Sequence record: OL739525.1 | Strand: one strand, 5' to 3' | Source: Escherichia phage dw-ec | Length of the DNA: 64,000 nucleotides | Part shown: in pieces, positions 578-26,762 of the stretch | How the letters are laid out: every line of letters starts with the position of its first letter | Numbering within the stretch: the stretch's first letter is position 1 | Made by a program: the position numbers and the translations under genes | The notes under the pieces: model-generated | What the model was told of the DNA's origin: nothing | The model's input: only the letters and a program-made list of their open reading frames with translations | The model's database searches: none

Positions 578-3500
578 ATGGCAACATTCCCAACATATCC
601 AGCAACGTCTCTCGAACAGGGCGTAGACCTGGTTATTTTCTCATCTAACCAACTCCATGATGTTATTAATGGAAGTGCTACAGAGAGTATTGAAACAGAA
701 TCAGGGTTGATACCAACCCTGAGAAAAGCCCTTGTTGACAACTTTTTCTTTAAAAGCCCATTGGATTGGGCGCAAGGCACAAACGAAACAGTTTTTAACC
801 AACTTCGTTATTTCCAGAATGGAGTATTGAGCGGTTATTACTATGCTCCTAACGCTACATTGGTTAACCCAATCCCTATGCAAGGGACTCCAGTAGGAGA
901 TAACAACTGGGTATTGTGGGGACTGAAAACAGAACAATTAGCAACAGAAGTCACCCCGTGGGTATACTCTGGTGCAACTGGTTATGAAACAGTAATTAGT
1001 CCTCCTTACATCTTTGATAGTGCTATTGTTACGATCAATGGTGTTATTCAGGTTCTGGGGGAAGCTTTCCGTATAGAAGACAGTAAGATCATCTTATCTG
1101 AACCTTTGGGACACGATCCTGCAACAGGACTGCCAAACAAGCTTTTTGCTTATATTGGTAAAATCGTAGCTTCAGCAGATACAGATCCTAATCTAGAGAA
1201 CCGTCTTGTTAGTTTAGAAACAAAAACGGAAGAACTAACAGAAAGCATGGATAAAGTCCCTCTGCAAACTATTGCTCGTAAGTATGGTTTGTTAGATGAT
1301 GAGGTGGCTTACGCAACAGCAGGTCAATCGTTAACAGGGATTAAAGCTCTGTACGATCCGGTAGCACAGTCTTCCTACACATTACCTCCTAACATCACAG
1401 GAACTTTAACATCCTTATCTGTTTCTGGAGTAATGACTTATTCTGGAGGATCTGTAGACCTTTCTGCACTGGCTGTTGAGCGTGGACAGTTTGTTCATTT
1501 GCCTACAAGCTTTGGTAATAACGTAACTCTGACAGCTAAAAATCAGACGATTGGACGTGGTGCTGGTCGTTATCGTTGGGCTGGAAGTTTACCAAAAAGT
1601 ATTTTGGCCTCTGATACATTGGAGACAAGCGGAGGATTAGGTCCAAATGCATGGGTTCTGACTAATACAGAAGGACTGTTAACCCCTCGTGGTGGAACAT
1701 ACAACGATCTATTCGATGTTGTCTACTTGTCAGAATTTGCTAACAATACAACTACCTATACCACACCAGAAGCAGCTTTCCAGGCGGCACTGTTAGCAGC
1801 AAAAGCTTCGAAAAGCAAGATTCTCGATGCTTACGGTTGCGACATGACTTTCACGACAAGCTCTTTTGATATTCAAGATATCACTTTGCGTGGTGGTGTG
1901 TTCCGTGGTCAACGCGACTATCGTGTGCAGAATGCTACAGTAGAAGGCACAACTTTCCGTAACTCTCGTGTTATGTATTGGGGTGGTGCTGTGCGCATGT
2001 TCGATTGTTTGTGGGACGGTGCTCCTCGCGCAGGTCAAGTTGGTAGCTTGGTATTCCAAGGCAACCCAATATCAGGTACTTTTGAAATTGATAATTGTAC
2101 TTTTAAAAACGGGTTATATGGTATTCTTCAACAAGGAACAGGGGAACCAGTAACACGCGGTGTCTTCCGTAACCTTACCTTCATGGACATGCAAGGTGAT
2201 GCAATAGAACTGAACGTCATCAATAAACATTATGACGATGGTTGTGTGATTGAGAATATTTACCTGTCTAATATCGATGGGACTAACGCTCCTATTCCTC
2301 TGTCCAACTGGGGTATCGGTATCGGTGTAGCTGGTAAAGGACCATATGGTTACGGAATCCCTGATGATCAATATTGTAAGAACATTACAATTCGTAACGT
2401 TTTTGCAAAACGTTGTCGTCAGATTGTCCACGTAGAAGTTGGTCGTAATATCTCTATCGAAAACATTCATGGCGATCCAGATCAAACCGTATCTGTTGGG
2501 ACAGGTTTGGCAACTGGCGCAGTTGTAATGTATGGAAGTAAAGACTTTACGATTGATGGTGTTTATGGAGAGCCTAAAACAGACGGTAGCACACTTGCAA
2601 GTAATATCCGTATGATTTACTTGGAGTGGGGAACTAACGCAGTTCTGGATGAAGAGGGTAATCCGGTAGTTCCGGCACAGGGCAGACCTTCAAACCCATG
2701 CTTTAACTATTCTGTTCGTAACGTTCACACCAAAACTGGGCGTGTTTTTGCGGGAGTTTCCGCTGGGCCAGGTTATGAAAACAGAGTTAGCTTTGAAAAT
2801 ATTCGTTGCGCTGCCTTGCAGTTGTTCGGTATAGCTTCTTGGCTTTCAATGTCTAACATCACCTGTAATATCTTCGATTGTGTTGGTCAACCTGAATCTG
2901 GTCCAGGGACATTTTATGATGGATTCTTCCGTAGAGAAAAATCTGTTCTTGAAATGGTTAACGTAAACTGTTACCCAGATGGCAAGACGATGGTTACTGG
3001 TCGTCCACAGTGGAGCCGTTGCCGTTACTCGGATATTCATCGTGTCAACTGTAATGTTGAAGCTAATATGTATACCAATATCGCAGGTGGTATTGGAGCT
3101 ATTGTAGGGACAACGGGCAAAGTTTATTACTTAGAGCCTAATCCTAGTCGAAACATTGATGGAATGCATTTCCCAACAGGGAAAGAGTTTGACAAAGGGG
3201 ATATGATAGTCAAGGCGGATAATACGTTCTTCCTTGTAACAACAAGTGGGGCATATATTCCAGATATCCCAGCTTTCGGTATTCGAGCTACACAGGCAGG
3301 AGATACCTTCCTGACACAGAACTTGACTCCTAACGGGACAGCAACAAATGCTTCTTGGTTGTATCATTACCCTCTGTCAGCAGGGACACGTATCCGTATT
3401 CCTGGCGCTGGTGTAGGTGGAGCAGATTTGGACACAGTTATTACTCGTGCACCTTATCAAGATAATGATACGTGGACTAACCCAGTTAAAATAGACATTG

Positions 3501-3631
3501 CAGATCCAATTGTAACGCCTACAAGTGCTGGAGTTAGAATTAAAACCATACCTAATGATTCCAGTAATGTTTCTGTAGGTAATACTGCGGTTATTCGCCC
3601 AACGCCAGTAGTAGATGTGCCAACAACCTAA
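578..3631 (+). CDS. tail spike / tail fibre protein with predicted right-handed beta-helix (possible depolymerase)
   Basis: 1017 aa ORF, ATG with AAGGGG RBS; long central region of Gly/Asn/Thr/Val-rich repeats typical of parallel beta-helix tailspikes; terminator hairpin immediately downstream. Confidence 0.75.
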   Translation: MATFPTYPATSLEQGVDLVIFSSNQLHDVINGSATESIETESGLIPTLRKALVDNFFFKSPLDWAQGTNETVFNQLRYFQNGVLSGYYYAPNATLVNPIPMQGTPVGDNNWVLWGLKTEQLATEVTPWVYSGATGYETVISPPYIFDSAIVTINGVIQVLGEAFRIEDSKIILSEPLGHDPATGLPNKLFAYIGKIVASADTDPNLENRLVSLETKTEELTESMDKVPLQTIARKYGLLDDEVAYATAGQSLTGIKALYDPVAQSSYTLPPNITGTLTSLSVSGVMTYSGGSVDLSALAVERGQFVHLPTSFGNNVTLTAKNQTIGRGAGRYRWAGSLPKSILASDTLETSGGLGPNAWVLTNTEGLLTPRGGTYNDLFDVVYLSEFANNTTTYTTPEAAFQAALLAAKASKSKILDAYGCDMTFTTSSFDIQDITLRGGVFRGQRDYRVQNATVEGTTFRNSRVMYWGGAVRMFDCLWDGAPRAGQVGSLVFQGNPISGTFEIDNCTFKNGLYGILQQGTGEPVTRGVFRNLTFMDMQGDAIELNVINKHYDDGCVIENIYLSNIDGTNAPIPLSNWGIGIGVAGKGPYGYGIPDDQYCKNITIRNVFAKRCRQIVHVEVGRNISIENIHGDPDQTVSVGTGLATGAVVMYGSKDFTIDGVYGEPKTDGSTLASNIRMIYLEWGTNAVLDEEGNPVVPAQGRPSNPCFNYSVRNVHTKTGRVFAGVSAGPGYENRVSFENIRCAALQLFGIASWLSMSNITCNIFDCVGQPESGPGTFYDGFFRREKSVLEMVNVNCYPDGKTMVTGRPQWSRCRYSDIHRVNCNVEANMYTNIAGGIGAIVGTTGKVYYLEPNPSRNIDGMHFPTGKEFDKGDMIVKADNTFFLVTTSGAYIPDIPAFGIRATQAGDTFLTQNLTPNGTATNASWLYHYPLSAGTRIRIPGAGVGGADLDTVITRAPYQDNDTWTNPVKIDIADPIVTPTSAGVRIKTIPNDSSNVSVGNTAVIRPTPVVDVPTT

Positions 3632-3692: not shown

Positions 3693-5717
3693 ATGAATTT
3701 AACAAGACCTAATAGTGCGATAGCCGATCTGGTAGAAGCTACTTATCGAAAACGTCGCAGCTTTGAGGCAGGTTTTACATTACGTAATTCCCGTGAAGTT
3801 TTGCTGTTAGCAGCAGAAGGGAATTATTACCAATGGAAAGGAACTTTTCCTAAAGTTGTTCCAGCAAACTCTACGCCAGCCACCACAGGTGGTATTTCTT
3901 CCCTTGCATGGCAAAGTGTTGGGACCGCTGATGATATAGCAATTATCAATGCCAAGTTTACGGCAATGCAGCAACAGATTGATGATCTGTCGGAAACAAT
4001 ACCTGAAGCTGGTAAATCGGCTTATCAGATCGCACTTGATAATGGTTTTGTTGGAACAGAAGCACAATGGCTTGCTTCTTTGAAAGGGGATACTGGTGCT
4101 CAACTTAATATTAAAGGATCATTAGCAAACACTAGTGAACTACCATCCACAGGTAACGTTGCAGGGGATGGTTATATCGTAGGTGATGTAATCTACGCTT
4201 GGGACGGTTCTGTTTGGAAACTTATTTCTTCTCTTGGGCCAGAAGGTAAATCAGCTTACGAGGTATGGTTGGCAGATGGTAATACAGGATCTGTTTATGA
4301 TTTTCTTACCTCTATAAAAGGTGATAAAGGTGATGTTGGTCCTACAGGGCCACAGGGAGCACCTGGTGTTAACGCCAACGGTTTTGATTATCGTGGGGAT
4401 TTGCCTTCTACAAGTAACTTACCACAACCAAACTCTGAAAACGTAAGTCAAGCTTATTCTATCAATGGTAATCTTTATGTCTCTAATGGGACAGCTTGGG
4501 TCAACATGGGTAATATTGTTGGTCCTCAAGGTCCACAAGGTGAGGCAGGTAAAGACGGTCTTGATGGAACAGATGGAGATGAAGGGAAATCTGCATATCA
4601 AAGTTGGCTGGATGCTGGTAATGAAGGGACAGAAGTAGATTTTATTGCCTCACTTAAAGGTCCAAAAGGAGACAAAGGTGATCAAGGAGAGCGAGGTCCA
4701 CAAGGTGAACTAGGTCCACAAGGACCAGTGGGTGCAACAGGATCAGGCTTAGATATTATCGGGGTTCTGAACAGTGAAGCTGAACTTCCTCCTACCGGAG
4801 AAGTAGGTGATGCATATAAAATTAATAATGATTTATATGTTTGGGTTCAAGATGCTACGGAATGGATGAATGTTGGCAGTCTTGGAGGAACATCAATTAC
4901 AGCTAAAGGTCATGTTCCGAACAGTGAAGCTCTCCCTGTTTATAATAACTATGGCGATGCCTACTTAACTGAAGACACTAGTAATCTTTACATCTATACC
5001 TACGATCAAGACACCAATTCCGCATCTTTTGTTGACATGGGAAGTATTAAAGGCGACAAAGGTGAAAAAGGGGATAAAGGAGATAAGGGTGATCCTGGAA
5101 CAAACGGAACCAACGGTACTGATGGGACCAACGGTAAGGACGGCGCACAGTGGTTTGTAGCAACAACTAATCCAGTTGCAGGAGACGGTGTTATCAATGA
5201 TTACGCCTTCAATACTACCACTGGAGCAGTGTTTAAGAAAACAGATTCTTCTACGTGGACGCTTATAGGCACTCTTCCTAGTATACCAGAAGCCCCTCAA
5301 GACGGCTTGACGTATGGTCGGTCTGATGGAAACTGGATCGAAATATCAGGATCAGATCCTACGGAAGCTATAACACCAACTAGAGTTACAGCAGGTTTCA
5401 TGGAACTTGAAACAACTGCTGCCAACTCTGGAGCATCTTGGACTCCTTCTGGAACTTCCAATATGTATGTTGTTACAGTAACTGATGCTCTGACAGTTGG
5501 AGCATGGCCTGGTGTCACTGGCTCTACAAAACCTAAAGCGTTTTCAGCAATGATTTATTTGATTCAAGATACAACGGGACACACGGTTACACTAGATGCG
5601 TCTTATGGAGCACTAAATGATACAGAAATAGCAACTGCTGCTAACGCAGTAACAATTTTGCAATTAACGTATCCTGGTGTGGGTGATATCGTGGACATGG
5701 TTGTTGTAACACGATAA
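3693..5717 (+). CDS. collagen-like tail fibre protein
   Basis: 674 aa; several Gly-X-Y runs (GPQGPQGEAGKDGLDGTDG, KGDKGEKGDKGDKGDPGTNGTNGTDG); three copies of a GKSAYxxWLxxG..GT..xFxxSLKG motif and four ~30-aa LPxxGxxGDAYxIxxDLYVW repeats. Confidence 0.8.
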   Translation: MNLTRPNSAIADLVEATYRKRRSFEAGFTLRNSREVLLLAAEGNYYQWKGTFPKVVPANSTPATTGGISSLAWQSVGTADDIAIINAKFTAMQQQIDDLSETIPEAGKSAYQIALDNGFVGTEAQWLASLKGDTGAQLNIKGSLANTSELPSTGNVAGDGYIVGDVIYAWDGSVWKLISSLGPEGKSAYEVWLADGNTGSVYDFLTSIKGDKGDVGPTGPQGAPGVNANGFDYRGDLPSTSNLPQPNSENVSQAYSINGNLYVSNGTAWVNMGNIVGPQGPQGEAGKDGLDGTDGDEGKSAYQSWLDAGNEGTEVDFIASLKGPKGDKGDQGERGPQGELGPQGPVGATGSGLDIIGVLNSEAELPPTGEVGDAYKINNDLYVWVQDATEWMNVGSLGGTSITAKGHVPNSEALPVYNNYGDAYLTEDTSNLYIYTYDQDTNSASFVDMGSIKGDKGEKGDKGDKGDPGTNGTNGTDGTNGKDGAQWFVATTNPVAGDGVINDYAFNTTTGAVFKKTDSSTWTLIGTLPSIPEAPQDGLTYGRSDGNWIEISGSDPTEAITPTRVTAGFMELETTAANSGASWTPSGTSNMYVVTVTDALTVGAWPGVTGSTKPKAFSAMIYLIQDTTGHTVTLDASYGALNDTEIATAANAVTILQLTYPGVGDIVDMVVVTR

Positions 5718-5721
5718 CAGA

Positions 5722-5746
5722 AGCCCCGAAAGGGGCTTTCTTTTTA
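5722..5746 (+). terminator. rho-independent terminator
   Basis: GCCCC-gaaa-GGGGC stem-loop (GNRA loop) followed by TTTCTTTTT. Confidence 0.7.
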
Positions 5747-5758
5747 TGGAGGGTTTAA

Positions 5759-8431
5759 ATGTTTCCAATTCCAATATTTACTATTATGACCAGCACTGGT
5801 GTCGTTCCTCTGCCAGCGGGTATTGTTAAAAAAGTAATCACTTTAGATTACCCAGATAATGCTGGTAATTCTAACAGCAGTTTAGCAATTTTGCTTAATG
5901 ATGGTAGATTGTTTACTCAAGGCGCAAACCTTTTTGGTGAGATTGCAGATGGAACTCGTAGTGCACGATTCAATAATTTCCACTTAGCTTCTACTGTAGT
6001 AGCGGATGTGTTTACCGCAGATCGTTGTTTTGTTATTAAAACTAACAGCGGGGGATGGCAATATTCAGGATTGACAGCAGGGTTGGTAGGATCTATAGCA
6101 GCAGGTGGTACGGATGCATGTGTAACTACTTGGACCAGCTTTCCATCTGTAATAACAGGGACTATCTCTTTAGCCAATCTTAAAGAGGTTAAAGGAGGGT
6201 ATAACAATACTCTTTGGTTAATGAATAGCGGTGTTCTTTATGGATCGGGTCAAAACACAGTAGGCAGTTTAGGTGCAAGCACTACTAACGAAGTTTCTAC
6301 TCCCCGTCAGATAACAAGTTCAGCAGTTGCTTTTGATGCAGGTTATAACCAATGCTCTTATGTCAACAATGCGGGAACCTTGCGTGTTTGTGGAGCTAGT
6401 AAAGGTTTAGCAGGTAATAATAACACAACAACCGCTTTTGTCAATGCCACGATATCCACTACTGAAACAGTGTATGTCAAAGATTACATCAATACAGTTT
6501 CCCAGACAATAGTTGTAGGAGATACCTCCGGTGGCGCGGGTACAGTAAACTACTTATATGTTAGATCTAATACAGAAACAACCTACACTAAACTGGACAC
6601 CTTTGCAGCAGGTTTCTCAACATGGAAATTTCCACCAAGCCGCCACTCTTTTTTCGTTGGGATCAATAATTCCTTGTGGGCTATTGGTAAGAACTACACT
6701 GCAAACTTAGGTTTGGGATATGATTCTGCGAGCGGAGATCCACTCCAAGTGGGAAAACCAGTTAAACCTGAAGGAGTGGGTTCCTGGGATATAAACAAGC
6801 TCACAAGCGTTCATACGTTGAATATGGATATTACTAACCAATTAGGTTATCAAGGAACCTTTTTCGTTTATAACGGGGATATGTATTATTCCGGTATTTG
6901 GAAAGATGGGAAAGCCTCGTATCTGTTCAATAGTGGTCTAAACTATAATAAATTCACACCAATAGCAAGCTCCGTGATTACGGGGGATGTTCTGGCAACT
7001 GGCTTAACTACAGATTCTTTAGGAATTTGTATTGTAGGTGGAACTAAACAGTTGACACATTCTGTTAGCCCAGAAGGAGGTAAACTTTTCAATATTAAAT
7101 ACACTTCTTCTGCCCCTGCAAACATGACAATATCATCTACTGGTTTAATGACTTTCCATGCAGAAGGTGGTTTTGATGCAGGTATGACAGCCTTAAACGC
7201 TGAAGGAACAACTTTATCAGATACCTCTGGAGGATATGCTTCAACATTGAGTGTTTACACCCCTAGCTTATCTGCGATGGATGTAGGAACAACACAAACA
7301 ATGGTAGCAGAAATAACGCCAACAGGAGCAGCAAGCTTACCTGGTATGGTTGTTGAGTATACAACTACAGATCCTAATGTTGCTACAGTAGATCCTACAA
7401 CTGGTGTAATAACTGGTGTTGGTGATGGTGGTTGTAGAATTGGTTGCACAGCTACATATCAAGGTGTTGTTACCGCTTCTGATAGTTCTTATTTAACGGT
7501 GAACGCTGTTGCGGGAAAGGAGTTAGCTCCATCTCCGAGTAGTAGTTTAACGGTTCTAAACGGATATTTCAACCACTCGGCAGATGGGGCAATTACGTTC
7601 CCAATTTTATCGGGTACTGTCACACCAGCTAACTTTGTAGTTAAGGTGGATGACGTTGTAATACCTTCAAATAAAGTAATATTTAGAAATAAAGCTTTCT
7701 CTACAGTGGATAGTTATCCAGCAGGAGAATATAGACTGGCTATTGAATTTGCAAGTGCTTCAGTAGTGAATAGTGTTGATGTGTCTATGGAAGCAAATCC
7801 AGATCTTTTAGAATTATGGGGCGGCAACAGAATTGGTTATTCTACAAGCCCAGCCTCACAATTCTTAAAAGGTTGTGCTAACTTAAGACGAATAACTTCT
7901 GATTGTTTTAGTAACACATCTTACACCGGAACATCTATAAGTGGTATCTTCTCTGGCTGTACAAGTTTGACAGCTATCCCTGAAGGATTATTCAGTGATG
8001 CTTTATTTCCTTCAATGACAACAATGTCAAGCACGTTTGAAGGTTGTACATCTTTAACATCTATTCCTTCAGATTTATTTAAAAATCTATCAAAAGTTAC
8101 AAGATATTCTTACACCTTTAAAGATTGCACCTCTCTTGCAGAAGTTCCAGCAGGAATGTTTGATAATATTCCAACGAAAGTGACCTCTTTAACAGCTACA
8201 TTCCAAGGTTGTTTAGCACTTACAGATTTTAATAAAATCTTTAATGACAACCCAGGGTTAACTGTTTGTGGTAAACGTGGAGCATTATCTTCTTTCTTTA
8301 GTGGATGCACAAATCTTACAGGAACAGGAACAACATTAACAAATACATTAGGCGGAGTAGCTAATAGTTACCTATTCAGGTATTGCACAAAACTTTCTGA
8401 TTATAACAATATTCCTTCGGGTTATAAATAA
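5759..8431 (+). CDS. tail fibre / adhesin with RCC1-like repeats, Big_2-like Ig domain and BspA-type leucine-rich repeats
   Basis: 890 aa; N-terminal G.N..G.LG repeats (RCC1-like); central segment resembling bacterial Ig-like group 2 domain (TQTMVAEITPTGAASLPGMVVEYTTTDPNVATVDPTTGVITGVGDGG); C-terminal repeats F.GCTSLT.IP..LF typical of LRR_5. Confidence 0.75.
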   Translation: MFPIPIFTIMTSTGVVPLPAGIVKKVITLDYPDNAGNSNSSLAILLNDGRLFTQGANLFGEIADGTRSARFNNFHLASTVVADVFTADRCFVIKTNSGGWQYSGLTAGLVGSIAAGGTDACVTTWTSFPSVITGTISLANLKEVKGGYNNTLWLMNSGVLYGSGQNTVGSLGASTTNEVSTPRQITSSAVAFDAGYNQCSYVNNAGTLRVCGASKGLAGNNNTTTAFVNATISTTETVYVKDYINTVSQTIVVGDTSGGAGTVNYLYVRSNTETTYTKLDTFAAGFSTWKFPPSRHSFFVGINNSLWAIGKNYTANLGLGYDSASGDPLQVGKPVKPEGVGSWDINKLTSVHTLNMDITNQLGYQGTFFVYNGDMYYSGIWKDGKASYLFNSGLNYNKFTPIASSVITGDVLATGLTTDSLGICIVGGTKQLTHSVSPEGGKLFNIKYTSSAPANMTISSTGLMTFHAEGGFDAGMTALNAEGTTLSDTSGGYASTLSVYTPSLSAMDVGTTQTMVAEITPTGAASLPGMVVEYTTTDPNVATVDPTTGVITGVGDGGCRIGCTATYQGVVTASDSSYLTVNAVAGKELAPSPSSSLTVLNGYFNHSADGAITFPILSGTVTPANFVVKVDDVVIPSNKVIFRNKAFSTVDSYPAGEYRLAIEFASASVVNSVDVSMEANPDLLELWGGNRIGYSTSPASQFLKGCANLRRITSDCFSNTSYTGTSISGIFSGCTSLTAIPEGLFSDALFPSMTTMSSTFEGCTSLTSIPSDLFKNLSKVTRYSYTFKDCTSLAEVPAGMFDNIPTKVTSLTATFQGCLALTDFNKIFNDNPGLTVCGKRGALSSFFSGCTNLTGTGTTLTNTLGGVANSYLFRYCTKLSDYNNIPSGYK

Positions 8432-8433
8432 GA

Positions 8434-8460
8434 AAAGGAGCCATTTGGCTCCTTTCTTTT
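8434..8460 (+). terminator. rho-independent terminator (possibly bidirectional)
   Basis: GGAGCC-attt-GGCTCC stem-loop followed by TTTCTTTT after stop of 5759..8431. Confidence 0.7.
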
Positions 8461-11100: not shown

Positions 11101-13698
11101 TCAATGACAGGATGCCCAAGAATTCCCCACATCATATCCAGCAGTAAGCTGAACATTAAGATTGTAAAATTCTCCAGCCTTAGTAACAGCTAAAGCAGCA
11201 AGTTCACCTGCCCGACTATAAGCTGTAAACCATCCACCTTTGGGAGATTCATGAATGTTAGCCCAAATTTGCCCTGTCTCTTTTTCCTTATTATGCTTCC
11301 ATTCTTCGACTTTAGCAAGGCATTCTTTATCAATTTTCTTTTGTTCTTCAGGATCGTCTACTTTCTTCCAACCTAATGATTCAGGTGAAAACCATTTGAA
11401 TTCTACAAGGTTACGAGAAACTTCAAGCTGGGCTTCATCGTGATATGCAATCATTTGTTGCACGAAGTCTTTATTCTTCCAGTCATCTTTAAAGAAGTCA
11501 ACACTTAGCCCTTCTTCTTCGATCATGTCATCATAAATAACCATTGCACGTTTAGCACAGATAACCCCACCGCTTTGGAACAGAGAGTTAAGAATCGCGT
11601 GAGCAGAACGAGTAGGAACCTTACGACCGTCAATACCCAAAACATATTGTTTACCAGTCTTAACCCAGAAATCATTTAAACGTTCTTTAAGACGCGCCAA
11701 TGGGAATGCAGCTTCCCAGAAAGCATCGAACACCAATTGACCTGTAAACTTGTCGCTACCAATTGTTTTAGCAACCTTGTCGGCTTGTGCACCATAGGTA
11801 ATACCATACTTAACAGATTTAGCAGGACTACGTTCAAATTTACGTCCAATAGTTTCAGTGATACGTTTTGCCATCATTGTGTGAACATCGTTAGGTTTCT
11901 CTAACAACAGAGCGTTACAATATTCGTGTGGCTCTGGCTCGTACCGCCAACAGTAGTGTGATTCAATTTTTGCTTCCAAAGAGTCGAAGTCGTAGCCAAT
12001 CTGGAAGTACTTAGGAACCTCTACACCAAACAAGTTACGCATCTCCCATCCAAACAAAGATGTGACACGAGGAATATTAGCTACAGACCTATGCTTCATA
12101 CGAGAGGTTGCAGCATCACATGTAGCTGCTGGGGTAGGAATACGACCATCCGCCCTTACTGCGGCTAAGAAACCTTTATCATATTCTTGATCTTCCTCAT
12201 CTTCTTCCCAATCAGCACCACCGCCTAAAATAGAGTTCCTACGATGCTTATACGTTAAGTATTCTACAATCTGTGTAGCATAAGGGAATTTCTCACCTAA
12301 AGCTTGCAGGTTAGGACAGATTTCTTTTTCCTGACCTTTGGTAAAACATGGGTTAGTCAATACTTTAAGACCGCGACCCTTACCTTTTGCTATACGCTCT
12401 TGAATCTTCCTCTCCAAGGTTTCCGGTGTGCACTCCAGATGATCACAACGATCCTGACAAAAATTAGAAGACAGAGTTTGCTCAACGTAAGCTCGAATAC
12501 CTTTCTGAAGTTCTTCCTCGCTCTTTTTAATCTTGGTGCCAGATTTAAGAGTCAAGTCTTTATCTTTATATTCAGACGGTACCCAACCTAATCCTACAAG
12601 CCAGTTTTTAATATGGGTAGTATCGTTCAATGTTGCAGGGATATTAGGATCACACAAAGGCTCATCTGCTGCAACTGGCAGTTTCCATTCTTTCCCCAAC
12701 ATCACTAACCACCAATCTCCATCCCTCTCTTCCAAATGACCATCATGTTTCTTAGCAAAATTGATCATATGGTTAGTTGGCTCTAAGTTCTTTTTAATTT
12801 GCAACTTAGGTGGAATAAAAGCCTTAAGATAACCTTTTGTTGCTGGTTTAGGTGGCAAAATAGGCTCAACGAGTAAACGAAGACGCTCCATTTCTGCATC
12901 CAAAAAAGCAAGGTTCTCTTCTGCTTGTTTCATGTTAAAAGCAAACCCACGGTGTTCCTGGCGTGTAATAATGTCTGCTACACGTTGTTCAAGTTCAAAT
13001 GGACCTTCCCATTTATCATAATCACCCCATTCTTCCATAAGGTAATTATATACGCTCGTATTGGCTTTGTTGTCATAGATACAGTAATAAAGCATATCCG
13101 CAGCAAAAGTCTTAAATCGATCTTCTTCTGGAATCTCTTTACGGAAATCTATTTTTACATCACCCCCTGCCTTTCGAGAAAGTGCTGCCAAGCTATGTCC
13201 TGATTTGCCCTCAATCTTTCGATCTGGGTTTAACACTTTACTCAAAATCAAGGAGTCAATAAGTTTTACCTTATTTTTGCCCCACGTATTATATTTAACA
13301 CTGTAATCTAAACCATAAAACAGTTTTGTAGCCAACCAGTCATAGTTGATACCGTTGTGAGCCACAGCTATTTCAACCAGATATTCAGGCTTATCTTTAA
13401 AATAACCTTCATGATTAATAAAGTCTGGGAAATCTTTTAGTTGAAAATGTGTGTAATCTTGCGCCACATACTCTTTAAGAACATATGTGTATTTACCATC
13501 TGACTCTTCATAAGAACGCCCATCAAAGATGTATTTAGGGCCATCGTGGAAAGCTACTATTTCTCCTGTTTCATGGTTCTCTAAGACAATACAGTGCATT
13601 TGAAATGTGTCTTTGAGACGATAAGGACTAGCTAAATAATCGATAGTGTCATTATTCAACAATCCGTTTGCTTCAATATCCCATGTAAACTTACTCAC
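11101..13698 (-). CDS. DNA polymerase, family A (T7 gene 5-like) with 3'-5' exonuclease domain
   Basis: 865 aa; N-terminus ...DIEANGLL and C-terminus ...NSWASCH parallel T7 DNA polymerase (DIEANALL ... NWAICH); GTG start overlapping upstream stop, AAGGAGG RBS. Confidence 0.9.
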   Translation of the reverse strand: MSKFTWDIEANGLLNNDTIDYLASPYRLKDTFQMHCIVLENHETGEIVAFHDGPKYIFDGRSYEESDGKYTYVLKEYVAQDYTHFQLKDFPDFINHEGYFKDKPEYLVEIAVAHNGINYDWLATKLFYGLDYSVKYNTWGKNKVKLIDSLILSKVLNPDRKIEGKSGHSLAALSRKAGGDVKIDFRKEIPEEDRFKTFAADMLYYCIYDNKANTSVYNYLMEEWGDYDKWEGPFELEQRVADIITRQEHRGFAFNMKQAEENLAFLDAEMERLRLLVEPILPPKPATKGYLKAFIPPKLQIKKNLEPTNHMINFAKKHDGHLEERDGDWWLVMLGKEWKLPVAADEPLCDPNIPATLNDTTHIKNWLVGLGWVPSEYKDKDLTLKSGTKIKKSEEELQKGIRAYVEQTLSSNFCQDRCDHLECTPETLERKIQERIAKGKGRGLKVLTNPCFTKGQEKEICPNLQALGEKFPYATQIVEYLTYKHRRNSILGGGADWEEDEEDQEYDKGFLAAVRADGRIPTPAATCDAATSRMKHRSVANIPRVTSLFGWEMRNLFGVEVPKYFQIGYDFDSLEAKIESHYCWRYEPEPHEYCNALLLEKPNDVHTMMAKRITETIGRKFERSPAKSVKYGITYGAQADKVAKTIGSDKFTGQLVFDAFWEAAFPLARLKERLNDFWVKTGKQYVLGIDGRKVPTRSAHAILNSLFQSGGVICAKRAMVIYDDMIEEEGLSVDFFKDDWKNKDFVQQMIAYHDEAQLEVSRNLVEFKWFSPESLGWKKVDDPEEQKKIDKECLAKVEEWKHNKEKETGQIWANIHESPKGGWFTAYSRAGELAALAVTKAGEFYNLNVQLTAGYDVGNSWASCH

Positions 13699-25066: not shown

Positions 25067-26175
25067 TTACCAAGCCCTCGTTTCACAGCAGCTACCATCC
25101 CGTCTTCCAGAGATTGAACTTCATTAATATAATCAACACGAGCAGCACGGGCTTCCGTATTGATGCGGTTAGTTTCTTCCAACATCTTAACCAAGTTTTC
25201 CTGATCGTGACGCAGAGTTTCAATATCCAACACTTGACGGTTAGCCAGTGCTGCTGCTTCGATCTGATTCTGTGTGGCAAGATCGCTACCCAGTTTAATT
25301 GCCAGGTTAAATTCATCAAGAACGTTATTCTGCGTCTCTGCTGCTTTCATTTGACGTAAGCTCTCGATATACATTGAGAAGTTAGCAGAGTAAGCAGGAA
25401 TAACATTATTTACTATGTTACGCGCAGATCGCATTAAGCTTGCAGAAACTTTTTGCATACCTTGTACACGCGGTCCCATTTGGACACACAGTAGGCGCAA
25501 TGCTTTTAAATCTGCAATACGAATCTCCAGAAGATCCAAAGTATCTCGGATCACTTGTCGCTGTTCTACTGCATCTTCTGGAAGAGCAGCCAAAGCTTGT
25601 TCTTCTTTTTCATAGGTTGCTGTTAGAAGCTGCATATCTCGGTTCAAACTTGCAGCATATTGTCCAATAGCTTGATGTAGCTTTTCAAGATATACCAAGG
25701 AATCTTCTTCTTTGCGAATATCCATTTGAAGGTTCTTTACCAACTCTTCAATACGGTTATTAACATTATCAAACTCCCCGAACAGGTCTTCTTTCATACC
25801 CATAACTTTTTTAATGAGTTTAGTAATACCCTTGCTTTGTTTAATAGAGTTTGGATCAAGTTGTTTTGCCTGTTTAATCAAAGCTGTAAGTCGTTCACTC
25901 ATCTGATCGCCTTGATTACTACGTTGATGTTTTAACACCTCGGCATTCAAGGAACGCAAGGTTGTTCCTGCCTCTGCCCCAATCTCTTCAATCTCTTGTC
26001 GGGTCATAGAAGGCAAAACTGGAACTTCTTGCGGTGCCGCTGGTGCATAAACAGGACTGGCATCTAACACGCTTGGAGCGAATACAGATTTACTTGCATC
26101 TGTTGTTGCAGCGAATACACTCATTTCAGACTTCTTCTGACCACCAGTAGCTGCTTTTAAAAATGGACTTGTCAT
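25063..26175 (-). CDS. TelA-like (toxic anion resistance family) protein
   Basis: 370 aa, largely helical; LDPNS and DIETL segments resemble TelA/KlaA family; genomic context with TerD/TerC; needs HMM confirmation. Confidence 0.5.
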   Translation of the reverse strand: MTSPFLKAATGGQKKSEMSVFAATTDASKSVFAPSVLDASPVYAPAAPQEVPVLPSMTRQEIEEIGAEAGTTLRSLNAEVLKHQRSNQGDQMSERLTALIKQAKQLDPNSIKQSKGITKLIKKVMGMKEDLFGEFDNVNNRIEELVKNLQMDIRKEEDSLVYLEKLHQAIGQYAASLNRDMQLLTATYEKEEQALAALPEDAVEQRQVIRDTLDLLEIRIADLKALRLLCVQMGPRVQGMQKVSASLMRSARNIVNNVIPAYSANFSMYIESLRQMKAAETQNNVLDEFNLAIKLGSDLATQNQIEAAALANRQVLDIETLRHDQENLVKMLEETNRINTEARAARVDYINEVQSLEDGMVAAVKRGLGK

Positions 26176-26762
26176 TCTTCATTCTCCTCTTCTGCATCTC
26201 TTATATATGGTGAAACACCGTACTCTTTAGCTACTTTAACCCAATCATCCCATTTATACAACCATAATTTTCCTTCAGTTCCTTCTTTATCTGATTTCAA
26301 CCACATGTTAGGTTGCTTGCCTGGGTACATGCGATTAGGTTTACGATTATAACCTCTAACACATCTTGTCGCAAACCTATCTACCAGAACAAGAACATAT
26401 TTATACTCGTGGTTCAACGGCTCTTTGGAAGTGGCTTTAGGATTAGCCCCTAACTCTGCTGCCAGTTTTTGCCAATGAGCACCGTGCCTACTAAACTTAC
26501 CCATACAACCATCAATAGCGTGAGCAATTTCGTGCTTCATTGTATCCACGATCATATCTCTTGTAGAGTTCTTATGCAAGTGCCAATTTACAACAACAAT
26601 TTTATCTCGGTAGTTGCACCAACCGAAAGAGTTATTCACTTTGTTTCTAACACAAGCTTTATATCCTGCTTCACGTAACATGTTGTAGTAAACAGGAAAA
26701 TCTTCTTTTATTTCCTGCATCACTTCCCACCACAAGAGTTGCAAGTCTCTCTCGGTATGCAT
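26172..26762 (-). CDS. SprT-like zinc metallopeptidase-domain protein
   Basis: 196 aa; HEIAHAID (HExxH) within SprT-like context. Confidence 0.5.
   Translation of the reverse strand: MHTERDLQLLWWEVMQEIKEDFPVYYNMLREAGYKACVRNKVNNSFGWCNYRDKIVVVNWHLHKNSTRDMIVDTMKHEIAHAIDGCMGKFSRHGAHWQKLAAELGANPKATSKEPLNHEYKYVLVLVDRFATRCVRGYNRKPNRMYPGKQPNMWLKSDKEGTEGKLWLYKWDDWVKVAKEYGVSPYIRDAEEENEE

What the first reader, a model, noticed from the sequence alone, without database searches (positions are those of the whole stretch)
5759..8431. Tail adhesin combining RCC1-like repeats, a Big_2 Ig-like domain and BspA-type leucine-rich repeats
The 890-aa late protein has N-terminal G.N..G.LG repeats, a central Ig-like domain and C-terminal F.GCTSLT.IP..LF repeats. 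LRR modules are uncommon in coliphage receptor-binding proteins and suggest a protein rather than polysaccharide receptor, or a domain captured from a bacterial adhesin.
Basis: partly seen in the sequence, partly recalled or inferred. Interest (0 to 1): 0.45.

Follow-up and report, generated by a model that had tools for sequence, protein, structure and literature searches.

The report
Modular phage tail adhesin with LRR head
This is the last gene of the tail-fibre cluster of a Phapecoctavirus coliphage and encodes a beads-on-a-string protein (RCC1-like propeller, two Ig-like domains, a small beta-sandwich and a leucine-rich-repeat horseshoe) whose C-terminal third is an exchangeable cassette; it is probably an accessory host-binding protein, already present in dozens of sequenced phages, and interesting but not exceptional.

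Summary
The ORF is real: 5759-8431, + strand, 890 aa. All three domain calls hold. Residues 23-400 form an RCC1-like seven-bladed propeller. Residues 401-585 are two tandem Big_2 domains, not one. Residues 691-890 are seven 26-32-residue leucine-rich repeats with a C-terminal cap. 'BspA-type' holds only at superfamily level: this sequence misses the Pfam LRR_5 and DUF285 cut-offs, but its homologues hit both.

The window is a Phapecoctavirus, 99.9% identical to phage ETEC-TG. The gene is PHROG 11922 'tail protein', called TfpM1 in a 2025 paper that made no domain analysis.

The main new point is modularity. The first ~530-585 residues are conserved. The C-terminal third is one of at least four states: this LRR cassette, a gp17/GTA-head-spike-like domain, a classic DUF285 cassette, or nothing. 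Synonymous divergence shows the LRR cassette moved between lineages more recently than the N-terminus diverged.

Best reading: a virion-borne accessory adhesin with a swappable ligand-binding head. Virion location, oligomeric state and ligand are untested, and nothing favours a protein over a glycan receptor.

Verdict: new member of a known kind, moderate-low interest.

The parts
5748..5753 (+). Shine-Dalgarno GGAGGG, 5 nt upstream of the ATG
   Evidence: Read directly from the sequence.
5759..8431 (+). Whole gene, 890 aa plus stop. It is the Phapecoctavirus 'tail protein' (PHROG 11922), called TfpM1 in PMC12695924.
   Evidence: It is 99.9% identical in nucleotides to ETEC-TG CDS0226.
5759..5824 (+). 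Conserved N-terminal peptide, residues 1-22 (MFPIPIFTIMTSTGVVPLPAGI). Low model confidence. Candidate docking segment.
   Evidence: M1, P3, P5, G14, P17 and G21 are at least 90% conserved across 42 homologues down to 27% identity. pLDDT is 42-52. The docking role is inferred.
5825..6958 (+). RCC1-like seven-bladed beta-propeller, residues 23-400
   Evidence: Pfam PF00415 and PF25390. Foldseek against UVR8, HERC2, RPGR and RCC1: E 1.4e-14, target TM 0.70. DSSP shows about 7 x 4 strands.
6959..7243 (+). First Big_2 Ig-like domain, residues 401-495
   Evidence: Pfam Big_2 has two stretches. PHROG hits cover 401-585. The model shows a beta-sandwich.
7244..7513 (+). Second Big_2 Ig-like domain, residues 496-585. 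Its distal half (about 533-585, nt 7355-7513) is the recombination boundary of the C-terminal cassette.
   Evidence: The best Pfam Big_2 stretch is 505-565. In P0128-130 identity falls from 99-100% to 87% in this domain, and the sequence is unrelated beyond it.
7514..7540 (+). Flexible linker, residues 586-594
   Evidence: pLDDT is below 50 at residues 585-588.
7541..7828 (+). PKD-like beta-sandwich, residues 595-690. It is the first half of the exchangeable cassette.
   Evidence: The model shows a beta-sandwich. It aligns with the WGDG sandwich that precedes the DUF285 repeats in P0141 (hhalign). BFVD matches are named 'PKD domain-containing protein'. There is no Pfam hit of its own.
7829..8428 (+). 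Leucine-rich-repeat horseshoe, residues 691-890. Seven repeats (F.GC at 703, 731, 760, 787, 815, 847, 873) with a C-terminal cap ending ...DYNNIPSGYK.
8434..8455 (.). Bidirectional terminator-like hairpin directly after the stop codon, between this gene and the convergent minus-strand genes
   Evidence: It is a consensus scan only.
5720..5739 (+). Terminator-like hairpin between the upstream 674-aa fibre gene (which ends at 5717) and this gene
   Evidence: It is a consensus scan only, and its significance for expression is unknown.

Best explanation
The gene encodes a modular, virion-borne accessory adhesin of the Phapecoctavirus tail-fibre apparatus.

- **Invariant part.** The conserved N-terminal peptide and the RCC1-like propeller hold the protein on the particle.
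- **Stalk.** The two Big_2 domains form a stalk. They also supply the conserved DNA at which recombination swaps what follows.
- **Head.** The C-terminal cassette (PKD-like sandwich plus seven-repeat capped LRR horseshoe) is the ligand-binding head. It is one of at least three alternative heads used by this protein family.
- **Proposed role.** The head makes a reversible, auxiliary contact with a conserved host-surface component and so helps set host range. Irreversible binding to the LPS core is left to the short Mu-like fibres.

Shown: the domain folds, the cassette exchange, purifying selection and the position in the locus. Inferred: presence in the virion, attachment through the N-terminus, probably non-trimeric state, binding function and nature of the ligand.
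For: **Locus**
- This is the last gene of the + strand cluster: baseplate wedge, short fibre, chaperone, colanidase-like spike, collagen-containing fibre, then this gene. Replication genes follow on the other strand.
- At the same position, rV5-like phages carry an 1875-aa 'lateral tail fiber protein with intimin domain' that shares the N-terminal ~195 residues.
- phi92-like phages carry a 939-aa 'tail component' that shares the Big_2 pair at 64% identity.

**Architecture typical of receptor-binding proteins**
- The N-terminal two-thirds are conserved across Phapecoctavirus, the 'Wecvirus' group and Seunavirus-like phages.
- The C-terminal third is the LRR cassette, or a domain homologous to 'Tail fiber protein gp17' (9occ, E 2e-20) and to the R. 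capsulatus GTA head-spike fibre (6tb9, E 3e-14), or a DUF285 cassette (E 1e-42), or absent.

**Recent cassette exchange**
- Window against phiWec190: dS is about 4 (saturated) in the propeller, 0.23 in the sandwich and 0.62 in the LRR.
- phiWec186 is 76% identical in the N-terminus but about 98% identical in its alternative cassette to Phapecoctavirus P0129.

**Selection.** dN/dS is 0.03-0.18 in every domain.

**Fold.** The head is a genuine LRR solenoid of the BspA/DUF285 class, which is used by surface adhesins.

**Correlation with host requirements**
- Close relatives with the LRR allele (phiWec188/190) need yhaH. Those with the alternative allele (phiWec179/181/186) need flhD. Both groups need waaT (PMC12548472; alleles).
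- The cassette is one of only three differences in the fibre locus between the two groups.
Against: - I found no proteomic, microscopic or genetic evidence that this protein is in the virion or on the tail.
- Unlike its two upstream neighbours, it lacks the Tail_spike_N docking domain.
- I saw no coiled-coil, beta-helix or collagen segment in the model or in the domain hits that would suggest a trimeric fibre.
- Terminator-like hairpins flank the gene on both sides, so it may be expressed separately.
- The LRR cassette is more conserved than the N-terminus among carriers: 90-93% against 74-86%. It is therefore not a hypervariable specificity determinant.
- In-frame deletion variants that lose half the propeller exist on two contigs of near genome length, 143 and 147 kb. 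This suggests the intact protein may be dispensable.
- The flhD/yhaH correlation is confounded by a divergent TfpL and an extra 688-aa gene.
Confidence: 0.6

Rival explanations
1. It is a head or neck decoration adhesin in the manner of T4 Hoc. On this reading it is an Ig-domain protein displayed on the capsid or collar that mediates weak adherence to mucus, biofilm matrix or cell debris, and it is not a tail receptor-binding protein.
For: - Big_2 domains are typical of decoration proteins. PHROG hits to the Big_2 region include 'structural protein with Ig domain' in the head-and-packaging category.
- The alternative cassette is homologous to the GTA head-spike fibre 6tb9.
- The phi92 structure paper notes that two fibre-like phi92 proteins resemble a head spike of phage Pa223.
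- The protein lacks Tail_spike_N and has no obvious trimerisation element.
Against: [quoted passage not shown]
- Positional counterparts are annotated as lateral tail fibre or tail component.
- The same alternative cassette matches a tail-fibre protein even better (9occ, E 2e-20).
Confidence: 0.15
2. It is a structural scaffold of the fibre network with no ligand of its own. The propeller and Ig domains bridge other fibres, and the C-terminal cassettes dock different partner fibres rather than host molecules.
For: - From general knowledge, propellers and LRRs are generic protein-protein interaction modules.
- Phages of this subfamily have branched fibre assemblies in which several components are still unassigned.
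- The cassette is well conserved among carriers.
Against: - Cassette states include 'none', as in the 565-609-aa versions of Seunavirus-like phages.
- Another cassette state is homologous to known distal receptor-binding domains.
- Phages that are 97-100% identical in the rest of the protein and share the flanking fibre genes carry unrelated cassettes. That is hard to reconcile with docking to a fixed partner.
Confidence: 0.12
3. It is a non-virion late protein. On this reading it is secreted or released at lysis and acts on host or neighbouring cells, for example as a decoy, in biofilm interaction or against a defence system, rather than being part of the particle.
For: - Terminator-like hairpins lie on both sides of the gene.
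- In-frame deletion variants exist in nature.
- No proteomic evidence of incorporation was found.
Against: - The N-terminus has no signal peptide or lipobox.
- Synteny with fibre genes is strict across three genera.
- The pattern of conserved N-terminus and variable C-terminus is that of virion adhesins.
- There was no hit in defence or anti-defence contexts. PADLOC was not searched.
Confidence: 0.05

Closest known systems
BspA of Tannerella forsythia and related BspA/LrrA-type surface adhesins (Pfam LRR_5, with Big_2 domains)
   Same: - LRR repeats with an F.GC.sLtsI.iP-type consensus, including the conserved core Cys, are combined with Big_2 Ig-like domains in a surface-exposed adhesin.
- 38 of 86 homologues of the cassette hit LRR_5, and one is named 'BspA family LRR surface protein'.
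   Different: - This sequence does not itself reach the LRR_5 model.
- Its repeats are 27-29 residues, against about 23 in LRR_5 (my recollection of the family).
- The domain order is reversed, with Ig domains first and the LRR last.
- It is a phage protein with an RCC1-like propeller and no secretion signal.
DUF285 / PARCEL repeat proteins (Pfam PF03382, NCBIfam TIGR02167)
   Same: - Sister alleles of this very protein (P0141-P0145) carry a classic DUF285 cassette at the same position (E 1e-42).
- That cassette aligns with the sandwich+LRR family over both sub-domains: hhalign probability 94.8%, E 5e-8.
- Weak direct hits exist: DUF285 at E 0.07 and PARCEL at E 0.0028.
   Different: - The direct scores are below the curated cut-offs.
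- The motif here is LT.IP.GLF, of the VLR/LRRTM kind, rather than the W-D-containing DUF285 motif.
Modular receptor-binding proteins of the Vequintavirinae/Stephanstirmvirinae 'Swiss army knife' tail (phi92, rV5, BASEL phages)
   Same: - The locus and subfamily are the same.
- It follows the same pattern of conserved N-terminus and exchangeable distal module.
- The rV5-like 1875-aa 'lateral tail fiber protein with intimin domain' shares the first ~195 residues and the same terminal position in the locus.
   Different: - The described fibres are trimeric spikes with glycan-degrading domains (colanidase, endosialidase, deacetylase).
- This protein shows no enzymatic domain and no evident trimerisation element.
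- It is missing from phi92 itself, whose cryo-EM fibres I-III do not include it.
Listeria internalins (LRR plus Ig-like inter-repeat domain)
   Same: A capped LRR horseshoe is packed against an Ig-like beta-sandwich and acts as the binding head of a surface adhesin. This is general knowledge; internalin-derived repebodies are among the PDB profile hits.
   Different: - The order of the domains differs, since the sandwich precedes the LRR here.
- The repeats are 27-29 residues, against 22 in internalins (my recollection of the family).
- There is no close sequence relationship.
RCC1-like domain proteins (UVR8, HERC2 RLD, RPGR, RCC1)
   Same: The seven-bladed propeller fold is shared: Foldseek E 1.4e-14, target TM 0.70. 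One repeat is above the Pfam RCC1 threshold.
   Different: - Sequence identity is only 13-18%.
- Nothing suggests guanine-nucleotide-exchange or photoreceptor function.
- Here the propeller is the conserved part of a phage structural-locus protein.

Membership tests
RCC1-like domain (seven-bladed propeller; Pfam RCC1 PF00415 / RLD PF25390) | Sequence match to the RCC1 repeat or RLD models above the curated thresholds | tested here: inconclusive
   PF00415 scores 23.8 bits against a cut-off of 21.7 for one repeat, which passes. PF25390 scores 44.2 bits against a cut-off of 150, which fails despite E 2e-11.
RCC1-like domain (seven-bladed propeller; Pfam RCC1 PF00415 / RLD PF25390) | Seven-bladed beta-propeller fold superposable on solved RLDs | tested here: met
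   The model has pLDDT 89.6. Foldseek against UVR8, HERC2, RPGR and RCC1 gives E 1.4e-14 to 1e-8, target TM up to 0.70 and about 415 aligned columns.
Big_2 bacterial Ig-like domain (PF02368) | Match above the gathering threshold and a beta-sandwich fold | tested here: met
   The score is 36.6 bits against 22.8, in two stretches. There are two beta-sandwiches at 401-585 in the model. Homologues score up to E 9e-23.
Leucine-rich repeat superfamily | Curved solenoid of tandem 20-30-residue repeats with a parallel beta-sheet on the concave face | tested here: met
BspA-type LRR (Pfam LRR_5, PF13306) | Match of the sequence itself to PF13306 at or above the gathering score | tested here: not met
   There is no LRR_5 hit at E <= 1 for the full protein and none at E <= 1e-3 for the C-terminal 310 aa.
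BspA-type LRR (Pfam LRR_5, PF13306) | Homology to proteins that are members | tested here: met
   38 of 86 homologues hit LRR_5, with a best E of 2.5e-13. The profile hits the BspA-like structures 4fs7 (7e-12) and 4gt6 (3.6e-10). One source names a homologue 'BspA family LRR surface protein'.
DUF285 / PARCEL repeat (PF03382, TIGR02167) | Match of the sequence itself above the curated cut-off | tested here: not met
   DUF285 scores 13.3 bits against 25 (E 0.07). TIGR02167 scores 17.4 bits against 30. Remote homology is supported by hhalign at 94.8% probability.
Phage receptor-binding protein (tail fibre or adhesin) | Encoded in the tail or baseplate morphogenesis module | tested here: met
   It is the last gene of the baseplate and fibre cluster and is syntenic in three genera.
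Phage receptor-binding protein (tail fibre or adhesin) | Conserved virion-proximal part and exchangeable distal part | tested here: met
   There are four C-terminal states on a conserved N-terminus. The dS contrast shows recent exchange.
Phage receptor-binding protein (tail fibre or adhesin) | Physically present in the virion, on the tail | not testable with these tools
   No proteomic or structural report was found for this protein or its PVP-SE1 or rV5 counterparts in the papers I could read.
Phage receptor-binding protein (tail fibre or adhesin) | Binds a host surface receptor and determines adsorption or host range | not testable with these tools
   There is only a confounded correlation: the LRR allele goes with yhaH dependence and the alternative allele with flhD dependence in the phiWec phages.
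Phage receptor-binding protein (tail fibre or adhesin) | Homotrimeric fibre or spike architecture | not tested
   Only monomer prediction was available. I saw no coiled-coil, triple beta-helix or collagen segment in the model or the Pfam hits. There is no Tail_spike_N domain, unlike the two upstream genes.

The most novel reading that the evidence does not exclude
The protein could be the first experimentally tractable example of a non-trimeric, propeller-anchored coliphage adhesin whose receptor-binding head is a leucine-rich-repeat horseshoe. On this reading the natural cassette polymorphism (LRR, gp17-like or DUF285) directly switches which host factor the phage depends on. An example would be the yhaH-dependent against flagella (flhD)-dependent infection seen in the phiWec phages. 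That would add LRRs to the repertoire of proven phage receptor-binding folds and give a ready-made swap site inside the second Big_2 domain for host-range engineering.
Probability: 0.2. Interest if true: 0.6.

Novelty: new member of a known kind. Interest (0 to 1): 0.33.

Why it matters
Phapecoctaviruses are among the broadest-host-range coliphages and are popular candidates for therapy and biocontrol. Which of their many fibre-locus proteins does what is still unresolved.

This analysis shows three things that the papers I could read do not report:
- 'TfpM1' is a four-domain-type modular protein.
- Its cassette boundary lies in the second Big_2 domain, at residues ~533-585.
- About half of the sequenced genomes carry an LRR head and the rest carry a different head.

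This gives a concrete hypothesis to test by cassette swapping for differences in host range and host-factor requirements. If the LRR head binds a host ligand, it would be a well-defined case of an LRR used as a phage receptor-binding domain in a cultivable model system. Otherwise it is one more annotated 'tail protein' with a better domain description.

Tried and rejected
- **Direct family assignment of the repeats.** Pfam and NCBIfam gave only sub-threshold hits on this sequence. I therefore relied on homologues, profile searches and fold.
- **Virion evidence.** The rV5 proteomics paper and its supplements do not mention the rV5 counterpart. The PVP-SE1 proteomics paper is not held. The CB7 paper has no held supplements. 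A search for Phapecoctavirus virion mass spectrometry returned nothing.
- **Literature on RCC1 or LRR in phage tails.** Searches gave nothing relevant. The second BASEL paper does not cover this subfamily.
- **Origin in E. coli.** blastn of the cassette against 5,426 complete E. coli genomes found no match.
- **Assigning the yhaH/flhD phenotype to the cassette.** I rejected this as unproven, because TfpL (74% identity) and an extra 688-aa gene also differ between the two phage groups.
- **The 396-aa protein P0001 as evidence that the LRR head works on a trimeric Tail_spike_N anchor.** I kept it only as an observation. It is a single contig, and the other members of its cluster are fragments or different deletion variants.
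- **Hypervariability or diversifying selection in the LRR.** I considered and rejected this. dN/dS is 0.085, and the cassette is more conserved than the N-terminus.
Full report
**1. The observation**

The window has an ORF at exactly 5759-8431 on the + strand, 890 codons with an ATG start. A GGAGGG ribosome-binding site lies at 5748-5753. Terminator-like hairpins sit at 5720-5739, upstream, and at 8434-8455, directly after the stop codon.

By megablast the gene is 99.9% identical to the 'tail protein' gene of Escherichia phage ETEC-TG. It is 95-99.5% identical to about 30 other full-length copies, all in ~150-kb genomes of the genus Phapecoctavirus, subfamily Stephanstirmvirinae. It matches PHROG 11922 'tail protein' end to end. 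So the window is a Phapecoctavirus, and the gene is already in the databases many times under an uninformative name.

**2. Domains**

*Residues 23-400: RCC1-like propeller.*
- Pfam gives one RCC1 repeat above threshold, 23.8 against 21.7 bits.
- The RCC1-like-domain model covers residues 40-332 at E 2e-11, although far below its curated cut-off.
- The AlphaFold2 model built from 42 homologues has mean pLDDT 89.6.
- Its N-terminal 400 residues superpose on the seven-bladed propellers of UVR8, HERC2, RPGR and RCC1, with Foldseek E down to 1.4e-14 and target TM 0.70.

*Residues 401-585: two tandem Big_2 domains.* The Pfam score is 36.6 against 22.8 bits, in two stretches.

*Residues 586-594: a low-confidence linker.*

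*Residues 595-890: an independent two-domain unit.* It models with pLDDT 91.7 and pTM 0.88. It consists of a small beta-sandwich (595-690) followed by seven repeats whose F.GC motifs start at 703, 731, 760, 787, 815, 847 and 873. The period is 26-32 residues, mostly 27-29, and a C-terminal cap follows.

Evidence that the repeats are LRRs:
- A profile of 86 homologues hits LRR proteins in the PDB by sequence alone: LRRTM2 at 6.6e-32, designed LRRs, VLRs, and 4fs7 at 7e-12.

The sequence itself reaches no Pfam LRR model. DUF285 scores 13.3 against 25 bits, and the PARCEL repeat gives E 0.0028 below its cut-off. Of its 86 homologues, 38 hit LRR_5, 20 hit DUF285 and 13 hit LRR_8.

'BspA-type' is correct at the level of the BspA/DUF285 branch of the LRR clan, not as direct Pfam membership.

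**3. Surroundings**

The genes upstream on the same strand are, in order:
- baseplate wedge proteins;
- a 353-aa short fibre with its chaperone;
- a small lipoprotein;
- a 1017-aa colanidase-like spike at 578-3631, with Tail_spike_N at residues 302-361;
- a 674-aa fibre at 3693-5717, with an N-terminal Tail_spike_N and collagen repeats.

This gene is the last of the cluster. Downstream genes are convergent and belong to replication, including DNA polymerase and primase/helicase. It carries no Tail_spike_N domain of its own.

**4.

Homologues of the full protein keep the N-terminal ~585 residues but differ in the C-terminus:

| State | C-terminus | Examples |
|---|---|---|
| a | this sandwich+LRR cassette | P0121-127, P0132, P0134, P0135 |
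| b | an unrelated ~300-residue domain | P0128-130, P0133, P0136, P0137, P0158 |
| c | a WGDG sandwich plus classic DUF285 repeats (PF03382, E 1e-42) | P0141-145 |
| d | nothing (565-609 aa) | Seunavirus-like phages such as PVP-SE1 ORF40, 4MG and GAP31 |

- State (b) is homologous to the solved 'Tail fiber protein gp17' (9occ, E 2e-20) and to the R. capsulatus GTA head-spike fibre (6tb9, E 3e-14).
- States (a) and (c) are remote homologues over both sub-domains: hhalign probability 94.8%, E 5e-8, 201 columns.
- P0128-130 are 99-100% identical to the window protein through the propeller and the first Big_2. Identity drops to 87% in the second Big_2, and the sequence is unrelated afterwards. This places the recombination boundary at about residues 533-585.
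- Among phage records, 64 carry the N-terminus at 95% identity or more and 35 carry the LRR cassette at 90% or more. Roughly half of the sequenced Phapecoctavirus-like genomes therefore have the LRR head.

Evidence that the cassette moves between lineages:
- Between the window and phiWec190, synonymous divergence is saturated in the propeller (dS about 4) and high in the Big_2 domains (1.1-1.8). It is only 0.23 in the sandwich and 0.62 in the LRR.
- phiWec186 is 76% identical in the N-terminus but about 98% identical in its type-(b) cassette to a Phapecoctavirus allele.
- dN/dS is 0.03-0.18 in all domains, so every part is under purifying selection.
- GC falls to 0.34-0.36 over the LRR, against 0.39-0.43 elsewhere in the gene. 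This is a weak compositional hint of foreign origin.

Neighbouring taxa use the same terminal slot differently:
- rV5-like phages have an 1875-aa 'lateral tail fiber protein with intimin domain' that shares only the first ~195 residues.
- phi92-like phages have a 939-aa 'tail component' that begins with the same Big_2 pair (64% identity) and has no propeller.

**5. Where the LRR cassette family lives**

- An exhaustive HMMER search finds 14,253 cluster representatives at E <= 1e-3 and 783 at E <= 1e-30. Many are giant multi-repeat proteins, and only one other representative covers sandwich plus LRR end to end.
- Three contexts were inspected. One homologue is in a bacterial chromosome among housekeeping genes. 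One is in a phage structural module next to the tape-measure gene. One is on a 157-kb phage-like scaffold.
- BFVD holds many phage proteins named 'BspA family leucine-rich repeat surface protein' or 'Leucine-rich repeat protein'. They come from uncultured gut phages, a crAss-like virus, Aeromonas phage D3 and Klebsiella phage Eowyn.
- In cultured phages the cassette occurs at high identity only in Phapecoctavirus-like genomes. Weak hits (about 32%) occur in Klebsiella temperate phages, jumbo phages and a cyanophage.
- It is absent from 5,426 complete E. coli genomes.

LRR heads are therefore unusual among cultured coliphages but not among phages in general. The direction of transfer between bacteria and phages cannot be decided.

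**6. Literature**

- A 2025 paper names this gene TfpM1 (890 or 891 aa). It notes its presence in Phapecoctavirus and the proposed 'Wecvirus' and its absence from Justusliebigvirus. It describes the between-group differences as slight and C-terminal, and gives no domain analysis (PMC12695924).
- The companion receptor paper shows that phiWec179/181/186 need waaT and flhD, whereas phiWec188/190 need waaT and yhaH (PMC12548472).
- I find that these two groups carry different TfpM1 cassettes: type (b) in phiWec186 and LRR in phiWec188/190.
- In the fibre locus the two groups also differ in TfpL (74% identity) and in an extra 688-aa gene in phiWec190. The correlation is a lead, not an assignment.
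- The BASEL paper and the 2026 phi92 cryo-EM paper both state that the assignment of genes to the lateral fibres in this group remains unresolved.
- I found no virion proteomics for this protein or its counterparts.

**7. Mechanism**

The best-supported reading, at confidence 0.6, is a virion-borne accessory adhesin.
- The conserved N-terminal peptide and the propeller are the attachment and scaffold part. In residues 1-22, six positions are at least 90% conserved across homologues down to 27% identity, yet model confidence is low.
- The Big_2 pair is the stalk and the recombination linker.
- The sandwich+LRR unit is the ligand-binding head.
- The cassette is conserved among carriers. This suggests a conserved host ligant rather than a variable one such as O-antigen.

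Shown: the folds, the cassette exchange, purifying selection and synteny. Inferred: incorporation into the virion, the docking mode, a probably non-trimeric state, binding, and the nature of the ligand. My results give no basis for preferring a protein over a glycan ligand.

The rivals are a capsid or neck decoration adhesin (0.15), a fibre-network scaffold with no host ligand (0.12) and a non-virion late protein (0.05).

**8. Comparison and novelty**

In function it most resembles modular phage receptor-binding proteins and BspA/internalin-type bacterial adhesins, which also combine an LRR with Ig-like domains. Membership is met for the LRR superfamily, Big_2 and the RCC1-like fold. It is not met directly for LRR_5 or DUF285. 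It is untestable here for the defining functional features of a receptor-binding protein.

The gene is already sequenced and annotated as 'tail protein' in dozens of genomes, and LRR proteins are widely annotated in phage metagenomes. It is therefore a new, better-described member of a known kind. The added value is the domain map, the cassette boundary and a testable link to host-factor dependence.

Interest is 0.33. The most novel reading not excluded has probability about 0.2 and would merit about 0.6: a non-trimeric LRR-headed adhesin whose natural cassette polymorphism switches host-factor dependence.

Noticed in passing
L002 8705-9895 (Logan SRR10359460 contig); corresponds to window 3693-3936 joined to 7460-8431: This is a 396-aa natural chimera, P0001. 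The Tail_spike_N N-terminus of the neighbouring 674-aa fibre is fused in frame to residues ~567-890 of this protein (sandwich+LRR, 100% identical). Most of the fibre gene, the propeller and the Big_2 domains are deleted. The junction lies in a ~25-nt imperfect microhomology. It is a single contig, so it could be a real deletion mutant or a minority variant.
   Followed up: partly
P0162 and P0167 (610 aa; contigs of 143 and 147 kb); corresponds to window residues 1-194 joined to 475-890: Two distinct sequences carry the same in-frame deletion between two FDAG-coding 13-nt repeats (TTTTGATGCAGGT). The deletion removes half the propeller and most of the first Big_2. The retained N-terminal ~195 residues coincide with the only part shared with the rV5-like 1875-aa fibre protein. 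This may mean that residues 1-195 are the functionally essential anchoring part.
   Followed up: partly
L010 4378-6444 (phiWec190) compared with L011 (phiWec186): phiWec190 has an extra 688-aa gene in the fibre locus with no counterpart in phiWec186. TfpL is only 74% identical between the two (958 against 943 aa). Together with the TfpM1 cassette these are the only large differences in the locus between the yhaH-dependent and the flhD-dependent phages.
   Followed up: partly
window 7650-8400: GC content dips to 0.34-0.36 and GC skew turns negative over the LRR-coding segment, against 0.39-0.43 in the rest of the gene. This could reflect a foreign origin or just the Ser/Thr/Asn/Phe-rich composition.
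   Followed up: no
L008 8956-11772 (Justusliebigvirus PHB05): The syntenic last gene of phi92-like phages (939 aa, 'putative tail component protein') starts with the same Big_2 pair at 64% identity and has no propeller. It has a weak SASA sialate-acetylesterase hit (E 0.025). The published statement that TfpM1 is absent from Justusliebigvirus is therefore only partly true.
   Followed up: partly
window 578-3631 and 3693-5717: Both upstream fibre-locus proteins carry the Tail_spike_N (PF18668) docking domain. It is internal (residues 302-361) in the 1017-aa colanidase-like spike and N-terminal in the 674-aa fibre, which also has collagen repeats. This pattern resembles the branched tail-spike complexes of Ackermannviridae.
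   Followed up: partly
phage records MG065650 (Campylobacter phage B15), OR584014 (Pseudomonas phage PsgM04F), NC_047994 (Klebsiella phage ZCKP1) and an Acinetobacter record: These are Phapecoctavirus genomes carrying this gene at 90-97% identity but deposited under non-Escherichia host names. About 20 'Campylobacter phage' records also appear among the rV5-like and phi92-like hits. The host labels look doubtful.
   Followed up: no
Klebsiella phage ST16-OXA48phi5.4 (NC_049450) 26133-26687 and about 13 related 37-kb temperate phages: A gene annotated 'tail protein I' contains 7-8 separate tblastn matches (32% identity) to the LRR repeats. LRR-bearing baseplate or tail proteins therefore also occur in temperate Klebsiella phages.
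   Followed up: no
L002 12518-15850 compared with window 11101-13698: The DNA polymerase ORF is 1110 aa on the Logan contig but 865 aa in the window. This suggests an insertion, an intein or a fusion polymorphism in the polymerase gene among close relatives.
   Followed up: no
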